Positions 46,171 to 46,479 of a stretch of 64,000 bases of DNA are shown here, in pieces. The stretch lies in NCBI GenBank assembly GCA_009779995.1, contig WRDW01000003.1, forward strand, positions 2,392 to 66,391, in the 5' to 3' direction. Made by a program: the position numbers and the translations under genes. How positions within the stretch are numbered: the stretch's first letter is position 1; each line of letters begins with the position of its first letter. This DNA is from Oscillospiraceae bacterium. Lineage in GTDB: Bacteria; Bacillota; Clostridia; Oscillospirales; Acutalibacteraceae. The notes under the pieces are model-generated. The model had not been told where the DNA came from and searched no databases. It saw nothing but the letters and a program-made list of their open reading frames with translations.

Positions 46171-46199
46171 TTGCAATTTCTGGAAGCGTAATGTATAAT
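46171..46199 (+). promoter_or_regulatory. Promoter of the small-ORF transcript (locus 2)
   Basis: TTGCAA, 17 nt, TG-TATAAT. Confidence 0.55.
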
Positions 46200-46260
46200 T
46201 AAGTTGGCGCTGTTCGGCAGCGGCGGTTGCTCCCCTCGTCCTCGAAAGGGGGTGAGTTGG

Positions 46261-46347
46261 ATGGACGCAAACTTCGCAATCTACATCCTGGCATTTCTCG
46301 TAATCGCAACCGGTTATATCCTGTCCATCCACGGCAGTAAGAAGTAA
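46261..46347 (+). CDS. Candidate 28-aa hydrophobic peptide (type I toxin-like), paralog of 60721-60801
   Basis: SD AGGGGGTGAG, then ATG. MDANFAIYILAFLVIATGYILSIHGSKK. Shares YILAFLVIATGY with the other copy. Confidence 0.5.
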   Translation: MDANFAIYILAFLVIATGYILSIHGSKK

Positions 46348-46447
46348 CCGCCCCTGAGTCGACAGCTCGGGCGGTTACTTCTCGTTTTTCAGCAATTATG
46401 AGGGGCAAGGGGAGCGGGCCGCCTGTTGGGCAACGCCACCCCTCATG
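46330..46447 (-). ncRNA. Candidate convergent antisense RNA (locus 2)
   Basis: Downstream of the minus-strand promoter at 46451-46479. Begins with hairpin ATGAGGGG..CCCCTCAT, then runs into the complement of the small-ORF terminator and 3' codons. 3' end not defined. Confidence 0.35.
46340..46389 (+). terminator. Terminator overlapping the last codons of the small ORF
   Basis: AGAAGTAACCGCCC-15 nt-GGGCGGTTACTTCT followed by CGTTTTT. Confidence 0.7.
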
Positions 46448-46450
46448 AAT

Positions 46451-46479
46451 AGTATAGCGCAAAACATTGCCCTTGTCAA
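46451..46479 (-). promoter_or_regulatory. Convergent antisense promoter (locus 2)
   Basis: Minus strand: TTGACA, 17 nt, TATACT. Confidence 0.55.

What the first reader, a model, noticed from the sequence alone, without database searches (positions are those of the whole stretch)
46171..46479. Unannotated small hydrophobic-peptide ORF faced by a convergent consensus promoter (type I toxin-antitoxin-like module, copy A)
A near-consensus promoter (TTGCAA-17-TGTATAAT, 46171-46199) drives a ~60-nt leader. In that leader a short hairpin (CCCCT..AGGGG) can occlude the SD AGGGGGTGAG. The 28-codon ORF that follows encodes MDANFAIYILAFLVIATGYILSIHGSKK, one TM helix with a KK tail. Its last codons and stop sit inside a 14-bp-stem terminator hairpin (46340-46389). 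On the opposite strand, ~100 nt downstream, a second consensus promoter (TTGACA-17-TATACT, 46451-46479) points back at the ORF 3' end. Its transcript would start with its own hairpin (ATGAGGGG..CCCCTCAT) and then be perfectly complementary to the mRNA terminator and 3' codons. This convergent 3'-overlap geometry matches known type I TA pairs such as TxpA/RatA and BsrG/SR4. I do not recognise the peptide family. The ORF is too short for the supplied track.
Basis: partly seen in the sequence, partly recalled or inferred. Interest (0 to 1): 0.7.

Follow-up and report, generated by a model that had tools for sequence, protein, structure and literature searches.

The report
Unannotated toxin-antisense RNA gene pair
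A 300-base cassette encodes a 26-28-residue membrane peptide and a facing antisense RNA; it looks like a new family of type I toxin-antitoxin modules from termite-gut Clostridia, and the toxin mRNA's own tail appears to act as the switch the antisense RNA targets.

Summary
A second copy lies at 60582-60893 (- strand). One MAG (Oscillospiraceae, Glyptotermes gut) and 37 metagenome contigs carry the same ~300-bp cassette in about 20 different chromosomal contexts.

The ORF is coding: codon-position entropy is 0.25/0.13/0.84, and start codons are ATG, GTG or TTG. Both promoters are conserved with a 17-bp spacer, and the antisense promoter is the closer to consensus. The SD sits in a covarying GAAA-capped hairpin.

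One point is revised. The hairpin at the stop codon is not a conserved sense terminator. Compensatory changes in 6 of 8 pairs, with a G-U bias for the + strand, show that the mRNA 5' end pairs with the 3' UTR about 40 nt beyond that hairpin. The conserved terminator overlaps the antisense -35. The antisense gene is therefore nested inside the mRNA 3' UTR, and its 5' domain mimics the mRNA leader.

Folding predicts that masking the 3' UTR raises the cost of opening the SD from 7.2 to 11.1 kcal/mol.

No Pfam, NCBIfam, Rfam, PHROGs or PADLOC family matches. Toxicity and transcription are untested. Verdict: a probable new type I TA family with a new regulatory layout.

The parts
46171..46199 (+). 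Copy A sense (toxin) promoter: -35 TTGCAA, 17-bp spacer, extended -10 TGTATAAT. An A-tract lies about 4 nt upstream of the -35.
   Evidence: 10/12 match. Conserved as TTG[C/T]AA-17-TATAAT in 26 of 31 loci where this region is present.
46206..46490 (+). Copy A predicted full-length toxin mRNA of about 285 nt. It comprises a 55-nt 5' UTR, the ORF and a roughly 143-nt 3' UTR. The TSS at G46206 is inferred, not mapped.
   Evidence: The TSS is placed 7 nt after the -10. The extent is inferred from the covarying 5'-3' helix and the downstream terminator.
46206..46236 (+). 5' arm of the long-distance interaction (GGCGCUGUUCGGCAGCGGCGGUUGCUCCCCU). It begins at the first transcribed nucleotide.
   Evidence: RNAalifold and pair counts show 6 of 8 pairs in helix 1 with compensatory changes and 94% of cells paired. 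G-U versus C-A is 43:3, which points to the + strand. Cognate duplexes are stronger than non-cognate ones, with p<1e-4.
46236..46255 (+). SD-sequestering hairpin: anti-SD UCGUCCUC, GAAA tetraloop, SD arm GGGGGUGA.
   Evidence: 97% of cells paired, with pair 46/55 present as UA:10, CG:9 and UG:5. There are 53 G-U against 6 C-A pairs, so it is selected on the + strand.
46261..46347 (+). 28-codon ORF MDANFAIYILAFLVIATGYILSIHGSKK. It has one hydrophobic helix and a KK tail, and is the putative toxin.
   Evidence: Codon-position entropy is 0.25/0.13/0.84, and synonymous:nonsynonymous differences are 3352:1290 in frame against 641:4130 and 369:4352 out of frame. Outside the search motif the in-frame count is 1163:1087 against 448:1598 and 147:1910. 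GRAVY is 1.04.
46340..46382 (.). Hairpin 1: AGAAGTAACCGCCC / GGGCGGTTACTTCT, enclosing the last two codons and the stop. The stem is invariant and the loop is variable. It is the likely 3' hairpin and terminator of the antisense RNA, and at most a partial terminator for the sense RNA.
   Evidence: 9 of 12 pairs never vary. The + strand T-run after it is not conserved. The strand of selection cannot be decided.
46399..46446 (.). Dual-use segment. On the + strand, 46399-46438 is the 3' arm of the long-distance helix. On the - strand, the whole segment is the 5' stem-loop of the antisense RNA (GAGGGG...CCCCUC).
   Evidence: Hairpin 2 has 3 pairs with compensatory changes. The antisense 5' domain aligns with the mRNA leader.
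46451..46479 (-). Copy A antisense (antitoxin) promoter: -35 TTGACA, 17-bp spacer, -10 TATACT. An A-tract lies upstream of it on the - strand.
   Evidence: 11/12 match. The -35 is TTGACA in 32 of 34 loci, the spacer is 17 bp in 33 of 34, and matches are 10-12/12 throughout.
46330..46444 (-). Copy A predicted antisense RNA of about 110-115 nt: a 5' stem-loop, an A/U-rich linker and hairpin 1. The TSS at G (46444) and the 3' end are inferred.
   Evidence: Two-hairpin folds are predicted in all 24 loci. It is fully complementary to the mRNA 3' UTR and the last ~5 codons.
46469..46490 (+). T2, the conserved intrinsic terminator of the sense mRNA (CCCTT-GTC-AAGGG followed by T7). It overlaps the antisense -35.
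   Evidence: 19 of 24 loci have a hairpin followed by a U-run at this position. The stems covary (GGG/CCC, GCGG/CCGC, GCGA/TCGC, GTGG/CCAC, GAGG/CCTC).
60582..60893 (-). Copy B, the same cassette on the - strand. Sense promoter 60893..60865, predicted TSS about 60858, ORF 60801..60721 (MALEMYILAFLVIATGYLMTIRGNKK), hairpin 1 at 60728..60685, hairpin 2 / LDI arm at 60672..60623, T-run at 60588..60582.
   Evidence: nhmmer E 6e-79.
60592..60620 (+). Copy B antisense promoter TTGACA-17-TATAAT (12/12 match). Predicted TSS is about 60627.

Best explanation
This is a type I toxin-antitoxin-like cassette of about 300 bp, bounded by two convergent sigma-A-type promoters.

The weaker promoter (TTGCAA-17-TGTATAAT) makes an mRNA of about 285 nt for a 26-28-residue peptide. 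The peptide is a single hydrophobic helix with a Lys-Lys tail and is presumed to be membrane-active and growth-inhibiting.

The stronger promoter (TTGACA-17-TATAMT) makes an antisense RNA of about 110 nt. Its gene lies entirely within the mRNA's 3' UTR, and it also covers the last ~5 codons.

Shown by comparative sequence analysis:
1. The ORF is under purifying selection.
2. The SD is locked in a GAAA-capped hairpin.
3. The first ~30 nt of the mRNA pair with the 3' UTR segment that also templates the antisense 5' stem-loop.
4. The mRNA's conserved terminator sits inside the antisense promoter.

Inferred mechanism:
1. During transcription the full 9-bp SD hairpin forms and blocks translation.
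2. Once the 3' UTR has been made, it captures the leader. This strips the lower 3-4 pairs of the SD hairpin and makes the mRNA partly translatable.
3. The antisense RNA is made in excess and is a sequence mimic of the leader. It pairs perfectly with the 3' UTR and displaces the leader.
4. The SD hairpin then re-extends, and the long duplex exposes the mRNA to RNase III and to 5'-end-dependent decay. The toxin stays off while the antisense RNA is supplied.
For: Anatomy and the second copy.

Related loci: 38 loci share the same layout.

Coding signature. Start codons vary between ATG, GTG and TTG at a fixed distance from the SD.

Promoters: conserved, and the antisense promoter is consistently closer to consensus (10-12/12 against 9-11/12).

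SD hairpin and 5'-3' helix: supported by covariation. The whole structure is 95.8% paired against 42-55% when the partners are slid. 43 cells carry double changes against 14.6 in shuffles, and 0 of 500 shuffles reach that.

Strand of selection: G-U pairs on the + strand outnumber C-A pairs 43:3 in the long-range helix and 53:6 in the SD hairpin.

Leader/3' UTR co-evolution: cognate duplexes average -42.1 kcal/mol, non-cognate -37.1 and shuffled -24.5, with permutation p<1e-4. Within this genome the values are A-A -48.0 and B-B -39.2 against A-B -29.4 and B-A -34.7.

Second terminator: present in 19 of 24 loci.

SD accessibility: the opening energy is 7.2 kcal/mol in the long form, 10.8 in the short form and 11.1 with the 3' UTR masked. 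The long form is lower than the masked form in 23 of 24 loci. Expected SD-hairpin pairs rise from 4.6 to 7.3.

Literature: a non-translatable primary transcript, a hydrophobic N-terminus with a cationic tail, and convergent organisation are hallmarks of type I TA systems (PMC6733600, PMC7699646, PMC8594479). Binding of the SR4 antitoxin to the bsrG mRNA 3' region extends the SD helix from 4 to 8 bp (PMC3834814).

Degenerate copies keep a perfect antisense promoter while the toxin ORF or leader is broken (L033, L036).
Against: - There are no expression data. TSSs, 3' ends and even the existence of either RNA are inferred from motifs.
- Toxicity is untested. The peptide matches no known toxin family.
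- All relatives were retrieved through the exact motif FLVIATGY. Conservation of the peptide core is therefore partly circular, and the family's true breadth is unknown.
- The loci are phylogenetically related, so the statistics over 24 loci are not independent.
- The SD remains mostly paired in every predicted conformer, so no clearly translation-competent state is predicted.
- The thermodynamic comparison ignores pseudoknots, folding kinetics and proteins.
- Copy B and 4 other loci lack a good second terminator.
- No phage, plasmid or viral copy was found. A classical addiction role on a mobile element is therefore not supported.
Confidence: 0.65

Rival explanations
1. The geometry is exactly. 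The mRNA ends at the stop-codon hairpin (about 46385). The antisense starts about 60 nt further downstream, and only the hairpin and the last codons overlap, as in TxpA/RatA. The downstream segment would matter only as the antisense 5' stem-loop.
For: Copy A has a T-run right after hairpin 1. The hairpin core followed by UUACUUCU could act as a weak bidirectional terminator, since the same tail is present on both strands. Short and long isoforms may coexist.
Against: The T-run after hairpin 1 is not conserved. The leader covaries with sequence downstream of hairpin 1, with a 43:3 G-U bias for the + strand. That bias only makes sense if one + strand RNA contains both segments. A conserved hairpin with a U-run lies further downstream.
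Confidence: 0.12
2. The peptide is a non-toxic small membrane protein, for example a modulator of a transporter or sensor linked to sugar use. Its synthesis is tuned by a cis-antisense RNA, and the cassette is not a toxin-antitoxin module.
For: The modules sit in chromosomal intergenic regions beside xylose isomerase, L-fucose isomerase, FGGY sugar kinases, GH5 cellulases and AraC regulators. There are no mobile-element genes nearby and no phage or plasmid copies. The core motif is strongly conserved, although the search required that motif.
Against: Several features are typical of type I toxins rather than accessory subunits. There are several paralogues per genome, with orthogonal RNA pairing regions. 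There are about 20 unrelated contexts. Translation is repressed in multiple layers, and the antisense promoter is stronger. Decayed toxin copies keep intact antisense promoters, and there is an orphan antisense half. An unrelated hydrophobic peptide sits in an analogous cassette 3 kb away.
Confidence: 0.18
3. The region is a non-coding structured element. It could be a leader or attenuator for the downstream sugar genes, or a mobile palindromic repeat. On this reading the ORF is fortuitous.
For: The RNA structure is extensive and conserved. In 4-5 loci the sense RNA could read into the next gene. The cassette has near-symmetric ends, and in L001 it is flanked by a 50-bp direct repeat.
Against: Third-codon-position variation is strong and the start codons vary while remaining valid. 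SD spacing is conserved. Downstream genes differ and lie on either strand. No target-site duplications were found in other loci. There is no Rfam match.
Confidence: 0.05

Closest known systems
bsrG/SR4 of Bacillus subtilis, and the related 3'-overlap pairs txpA/RatA, bsrE/SR5 and yonT/SR6
   Same: Gram-positive host, convergent promoters, and the antisense RNA on the 3' side of a small hydrophobic toxin ORF. The SD is held in a helix. For SR4, binding at the mRNA 3' region extends the SD helix from 4 to 8 bp and also promotes decay (PMC3834814). Here, masking the 3' UTR is predicted to raise SD-hairpin pairs from 4.6 to 7.3.
   Different: There is no sequence similarity in the peptide or the RNA. 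In those systems the two RNAs overlap only partially (PMC8594479). Here the mRNA appears to cover the whole antisense gene. The switch also runs through a covarying 30-nt 5'-3' helix whose 3' arm is the template of the antisense 5' domain.
par (Fst / RNA I-RNA II) of Enterococcus faecalis pAD1
   Same: Convergent promoters about 300 bp apart, a shared hairpin between the two genes, a 5' stem-loop that sequesters the SD, and an intramolecular helix that sequesters the extreme 5' end of the toxin mRNA (PMC7472228).
   Different: Fst signature residues are absent: there is no Trp between the helix and the tail, and no P/D/S/TxxxG motif. par uses direct DNA repeats, which make the two RNA 5' regions complementary. 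Here the repeat is inverted, so the antisense 5' domain resembles the leader rather than complementing it. No complementarity to the SD or start region was found.
hok/Sok and aapA/IsoA (long-distance 5'-3' interaction in the full-length toxin mRNA)
   Same: A conserved, covarying 5'-3' long-distance interaction in a stable full-length toxin mRNA, with the antisense gene fully overlapped by the mRNA (PMC6733600, PMC8594479).
   Different: In those systems the long-distance interaction itself hides the SD, and 3' trimming activates translation. The antisense RNA there overlaps the 5' part or the ORF. Here the SD is hidden by a local hairpin. The long-distance interaction is predicted to loosen that hairpin, and the antisense RNA targets the 3' partner of the interaction.
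Clostridioides difficile type I TA pairs (CD0977.1-RCd11 and relatives)
   Same: The host is a Clostridia member and the configuration is convergent. [quoted passage not shown] The genes are unannotated because they are so short (PMC7699646).
   Different: Those toxins are 34-47 aa or longer and lie on prophages and other mobile elements. This family is 26-28 aa, sits between chromosomal metabolic genes, and has no detectable sequence relation to them.

Membership tests
Type I toxin-antitoxin system (generic definition) | A short mRNA (150-400 nt) encoding a 20-60 aa hydrophobic peptide, often with a cationic tail | tested here: met
   26-28 aa, GRAVY 0.8-1.0, net charge +1 to +2, KK tail. The predicted mRNA is about 275-285 nt. 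Definition taken from PMC8594479.
Type I toxin-antitoxin system (generic definition) | An antisense RNA gene with its own promoter, complementary to the toxin mRNA | tested here: met
   A conserved TTGACA-17-TATAMT promoter points at the ORF in 34 of 34 loci where the region is present. A two-hairpin RNA is predicted. This was tested at the level of sequence motifs only.
Type I toxin-antitoxin system (generic definition) | A primary transcript with a sequestered SD (non-translatable or poorly translatable) | tested here: met
   A covarying GAAA-capped SD hairpin. The probability that the SD is unpaired is mostly below 0.3.
Type I toxin-antitoxin system (generic definition) | The peptide is toxic when expressed, and the RNA neutralises it | not testable with these tools
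   This needs inducible expression with and without the antisense RNA.
Type I toxin-antitoxin system (generic definition) | Both RNAs are actually transcribed | not testable with these tools
   No transcriptome data are available here.
Fst/Ldr (par) family | Toxin signature: a conserved Trp between the TM helix and the charged C-terminus, and a P/D/S/TxxxG(C) motif (PMC7472228) | tested here: not met
   There is no Trp. The nearest match is T/S-x-x-G. No Pfam or NCBIfam hit at E<=10.
Fst/Ldr (par) family | Direct repeats DRa/DRb that make the antisense 5' region complementary to the SD and start region | tested here: not met
   Duplexes between the antisense 5' domain and the translation initiation region are no better than shuffled controls (mean z -0.24). 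The repeat here is inverted.
Fst/Ldr (par) family | A bidirectional terminator shared by both RNAs | tested here: inconclusive
   Hairpin 1 is symmetric, with A-rich and U-rich flanks. No conserved U-run follows it on the + strand, and covariation requires read-through.
TxpA/RatA, BsrG/SR4, BsrE/SR5, YonT/SR6 | Sequence homology of the toxin or of the antitoxin RNA | tested here: not met
   No Pfam or NCBIfam hit. No Rfam hit at gathering threshold, and only chance-level hits at E<=10.
TxpA/RatA, BsrG/SR4, BsrE/SR5, YonT/SR6 | The asRNA lies on the 3' side and partially overlaps the mRNA, including the ORF end (PMC8594479) | tested here: inconclusive
   The 3'-side location and the overlap with the ORF end fit. 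However, the mRNA appears to extend across the whole antisense gene.
Hok/Sok and AapA/IsoA | A 5'-3' long-distance interaction that itself sequesters the SD, with activation by 3' trimming | tested here: not met
   A long-distance interaction is present and covaries. The SD, however, is held by a local hairpin, and the interaction is predicted to lower the SD opening cost rather than raise it. There is no Hok Pfam hit.

The most novel reading that the evidence does not exclude
The antitoxin RNA would work as an anti-activator, through strand displacement. On this reading the toxin mRNA needs its own 3' UTR to pull the leader away from the SD hairpin, which gives 3'-UTR-dependent translational activation that can only occur after transcription is complete. 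The antisense RNA is an inverted duplicate of the mRNA leader, nested inside that 3' UTR, and it competes with the leader for the same docking site. Competition re-closes the SD hairpin and uncaps the mRNA 5' end for decay. To my knowledge this logic has not been described for any type I TA family. Orthogonality between paralogues would be set by the covarying first 10 nt of the leader.
Probability: 0.3. Interest if true: 0.7.

Novelty: new variant of a known kind. Interest (0 to 1): 0.55.

Why it matters
Type I toxin-antitoxin modules are almost invisible to annotation pipelines. Only one of these ORFs has ever been called as a gene, and it carries no name. Known families come mostly from cultured pathogens and model organisms.

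This would add a family from uncultured, high-GC gut Clostridia (Oscillospiraceae). It comes with a ready comparative data set of 38 loci that already defines the RNA structures.

The layout gives a compact, testable example of how a 3' UTR and a cis-antisense RNA can jointly set translation and stability. The antisense gene is nested in the 3' UTR, the mRNA terminator sits inside the antisense promoter, and a leader / 3' UTR helix is mimicked by the antisense RNA. The covarying specificity region is the kind of part sought for orthogonal RNA devices (compare PMC12721322).

The biological role is open. The cassette sits beside sugar-utilisation genes, and its function could be stress response, phage defence or genome stabilisation.

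Tried and rejected
1. Known families. Pfam, NCBIfam, PHROGs and PADLOC with the peptides gave nothing, or only E of about 0.06-0.14 to unnamed phage membrane proteins. Rfam at gathering threshold and at E<=10 on all three modules gave only sub-threshold chance hits: SIB_RNA at 18 bits against a gathering score of 56, and Bp1_684 at 28 against 44.

2. Protein databases. The 47-aa upstream-extended ORF found no homologue. An exact look-up found a single unnamed JGI gene call.

3. Mobile-element origin. tblastn against plasmids and phages found nothing relevant. The viral-contig scan found nothing. There were no target-site duplications at the cassette ends. Flanking genes are metabolic or housekeeping.

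4. A par-like or SprA1-like second contact between the antisense 5' domain and the SD or start region: rejected (mean z -0.24).

5. A conserved ORF on the antisense strand: rejected. Stop-to-stop lengths vary from 48 to 202 aa.

6. Hairpin 1 as the conserved sense terminator: rejected, because the U-run is not conserved and covariation lies beyond it.

7. Literature. Searches for the peptide motif, and for type I TA systems in Oscillospiraceae, found nothing.

8. Structure prediction was not possible, because the peptides are shorter than the 30-aa minimum.
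Full report
**Observation.**
- a TTGCAA-17-TATAAT promoter preceded by TG (46171-46199)
- a leader of about 55 nt
- the SD GGGGGTGAG (46248-46256)
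- a 28-codon ORF (46261-46347, MDANFAIYILAFLVIATGYILSIHGSKK)
- a 14-bp hairpin that encloses the last codons and the stop (arms 46340-46353 and 46369-46382)
- a second hairpin, ATGAGGGG...CCCCTCAT (46399-46446)
- a TTGACA-17-TATACT promoter on the opposite strand (46479..46451)

A second copy with the same order of parts lies on the - strand at 60582-60893. Its ORF is 60801..60721 (MALEMYILAFLVIATGYLMTIRGNKK), and its antisense promoter is a 12/12 consensus at 60592-60620. The two copies are 76% identical by column. Between them the promoter hexamers are conserved, the spacers are not, and most codon differences are synonymous.

**Relatives.** No protein or RNA library recognises the element. 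This covers Pfam, NCBIfam, PHROGs and PADLOC and Rfam. Protein databases do not hold it either. Only one member has ever been called as a gene, and it has no name. On the ENA contig that carries this window, no gene is called at the locus.

DNA-level scans with back-translated peptide patterns found two sets of loci:
- one locus in the species-representative genomes: a MAG of Oscillospiraceae from the lower termite Glyptotermes
- 37 loci in JGI metagenomes

All were retrieved through the exact motif FLVIATGY, so the true breadth of the family is unknown. The consensus peptide is MGIEMYILAFLVIATGYLMTIRGNKK. Nothing was found in plasmids, phages or viral contigs.

**Coding.**
- Codon-position entropy is 0.25/0.13/0.84.
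- Pairwise codon differences are 3352 synonymous to 1290 non-synonymous in frame, against 641:4130 and 369:4352 in the other forward frames.
- Outside the motif that the search required, the in-frame count is still 1163:1087, against 448:1598 and 147:1910.
- Start codons are ATG, GTG or TTG at a constant distance from the SD.
- No ORF is conserved on the opposite strand.
- The peptide has one hydrophobic stretch of 17-19 residues and a cationic tail. This is the composition described for type I toxins (PMC7699646).

**Promoters.** The sense promoter is TTG[C/T]AA-17-(TG)TATAAT in most loci, at 9-11 of 12 matches. The antisense promoter is TTGACA-17-TATAAT or TATACT in nearly all loci, at 10-12 of 12, with a 17-bp spacer in 33 of 34. 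Both are preceded by an A-tract. The antisense promoter is thus consistently the closer to consensus, as expected if the antitoxin must be in excess.

**RNA structure.** I aligned 24 full cassettes from just after the sense -10 to the downstream T-run (A4). The structure was tested with RNAalifold and with explicit pair counts. It consists of the following parts.
1. An SD hairpin with a GAAA loop. It is 97% paired, and one pair switches between U-A, C-G and U-G.
2. Hairpin 1, whose stem is invariant.
3. Hairpin 2, with three compensatory pairs.
4. A long-range helix between the first ~20 nt of the mRNA and a segment inside hairpin 2, about 40 nt downstream of hairpin 1. This was unexpected.

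In the outer part of the long-range helix, 6 of 8 pairs show changes on both sides. Examples are GGCGCTG/CAGCGCC, GGTGCCG/CGGCACC, GGTATCG/CGATACC and GGTATTG/CAATACC.

For the whole structure:
- 95.8% of cells are paired, against 42-55% when the partners are slid by 1-3 columns.
- 43 cells carry double changes, against 14.6 in shuffles (0 of 500 shuffles reach that).

G-U pairs as read on the + strand outnumber C-A pairs 43:3 in the long-range helix and 53:6 in the SD hairpin. These helices are therefore selected in + strand RNA.

Cognate leader / 3' UTR duplexes are stronger than non-cognate ones: -42.1 against -37.1 kcal/mol, with shuffled controls at -24.5 and permutation p<1e-4. Within this genome the two copies are mutually poor partners: A-A -48.0 and B-B -39.2, against A-B -29.4 and B-A -34.7.

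**Consequence for the anatomy.**
- A single + strand RNA must contain both the leader and the segment beyond hairpin 1. Hairpin 1 therefore cannot be the only sense terminator.
- The T-run after hairpin 1 is present in copy A but is not conserved.
- A second hairpin followed by a U-run is conserved in 19 of 24 loci. Its stem covaries, and it overlaps the -35 and spacer of the antisense promoter.
- The four loci that lack it have the next gene starting within a few tens of nucleotides on the same strand.
- The predicted mRNA is therefore about 275-285 nt, and the whole antisense gene is nested in its 3' UTR.
- The predicted antisense RNA starts with its 5' nucleotide already inside a stem (GAGGGG...CCCUC). 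It continues through an A/U-rich linker and ends with hairpin 1 followed by UUACUUCUU.
- Its first ~45 nt are a near copy of the mRNA leader, which is the same fact as the inverted repeat seen from the other strand.
- I found no complementarity between this domain and the SD or start region beyond what base composition gives. A par-like or SprA1-like second contact is therefore not supported.

**Mechanism (inferred).** In every predicted conformer the SD stays mostly paired. The cost of opening it differs systematically, however:
- 7.2 kcal/mol in the long mRNA with the 5'-3' helix
- 10.8 kcal/mol in an mRNA ending at hairpin 1
- 11.1 kcal/mol in the long mRNA when the antisense target is masked

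The long form is lower than the masked form in 23 of 24 loci. The reason is competition for the CUC(G) at the base of the SD hairpin. It pairs either with GAG of the SD arm or with the CGAGGGG of the 3' UTR. The expected number of SD-hairpin pairs rises from 4.6 to 7.3 on masking.

This parallels bsrG/SR4. There, antitoxin binding at the 3' region extends the SD helix from 4 to 8 bp and also triggers decay (PMC3834814).

I therefore propose the following sequence of events:
1. The nascent mRNA is translationally closed.
2. The completed 3' UTR captures the leader and partly opens the SD. It also caps the 5' end, as the upstream helix does in par RNA I (PMC7472228).
3. The antisense RNA pairs perfectly with the 3' UTR and displaces the leader. 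This re-closes the SD and exposes the mRNA to RNase III and to 5'-dependent decay.

This rests on thermodynamic prediction, without pseudoknots or kinetics, over related sequences. It should be treated as a hypothesis.

**Context.**
- The 31-34 loci with enough flanking sequence fall into 18-22 different flank clusters, and upstream and downstream clusters recombine.
- Neighbouring genes are chromosomal and metabolic: xylose isomerase, L-fucose isomerase, FGGY kinases, GH5 cellulases, an AraC regulator, SecE, a Cys/Met PLP enzyme and a TPP enzyme. There are no phage, plasmid or transposase genes.
- Some copies are decayed. L033 has lost its stop codon and carries an insertion in the leader. 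L036 has a leader insertion and an altered tail. Both keep 12/12 antisense promoters. L033 also carries an orphan 3' half.

**Comparison with known systems.** In operating principle this is closest to the Gram-positive 3'-side antisense systems, bsrG/SR4 above all. It also shares the 5'-end-sequestering helix with par, and the 5'-3' long-distance interaction and fully nested antisense gene with hok/Sok and aapA/IsoA (PMC8594479, PMC6733600).

It is not a member of any of these families. There is no sequence match. The Fst signature and direct repeats are absent. The long-distance interaction does not itself hold the SD. The combination found here is not among the organisations listed for the 24 T1TAdb families as summarised in PMC8594479:
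- antisense on the 3' side and fully covered by the mRNA
- the mRNA terminator inside the antisense promoter
- an antisense RNA that mimics the leader

**Verdict.** This is a real, conserved, unannotated gene pair. It is very probably a new type I toxin-antitoxin family with a variant regulatory layout. Toxicity, transcription and the proposed switch all need experiments.

Noticed in passing
window 42754-43250 (+), antisense promoter 43227..43199 (-): A third cassette with the same architecture but an unrelated peptide. Its parts are: promoter TTGCGT-17-TATAAT, a leader of about 200 nt, a 30-aa ORF at 42989-43081 (MWEIVGVVLQATSIIVALVELFLYLRDHRK), a 14-bp hairpin at 43099-43146, and a 12/12 antisense promoter followed by a hairpin and T-run. 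Its 3' part is weakly similar to the A/B profile (nhmmer E 7e-4). The fold of 42789-43248 has z -4.65 and again pairs the 5' end with the 3' UTR.
   Followed up: partly
L001 2826-2878 and 3226-3280: In the Glyptotermes MAG the whole cassette is flanked by a direct repeat of about 50 bp, and the repeat itself contains a terminator-like hairpin. This suggests insertion or duplication at a terminator. Other loci show no such duplication.
   Followed up: partly
L033 34-178: An orphan 3' half of the cassette, running from hairpin 1 to the antisense promoter with no ORF, lies 2.3 kb upstream of that contig's full but degenerate copy (nhmmer E 2e-11).
   Followed up: no
window ~43328-43362; L036 leader insertion: A GC-rich palindrome, CCCCAACGAATCTGCGGATTCGTCGGGGACCCCGG, lies in the leader of the next gene. 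It recurs in inverted form as an insertion in the toxin leader of L036. It may be a small mobile palindromic repeat.
   Followed up: no
loci L001-L038 flanks: Upstream and downstream flank families recombine around the cassette. L003 shares copy A's upstream gene but has L-fucose isomerase downstream. L029 shares xylA downstream but has a different upstream gene. Many neighbours are sugar-utilisation genes: xylA, fucI, FGGY kinases, GH5 and AraC.
   Followed up: partly
window 19776-20076 (+): A T-box leader, the only Rfam match in the window above gathering threshold (96.6 bits).
   Followed up: no
window 61964-63997 (-): The RecG-like helicase ORF contains an in-frame tandem peptide repeat (…SVNCQLSTVNCQLSTVNCQLP…), next to a LTVDSGQLTVGVG stretch. 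It looks like an insertion within the helicase core.
   Followed up: no
window 60829-60943 (+): A sub-threshold Rfam hit to Burkholderia sRNA Bp1_684 (28.4 bits against a gathering score of 44, E 2e-4). It covers the upstream gene's terminator and the copy B sense promoter on the opposite strand, and is probably driven by the terminator hairpin.
   Followed up: no
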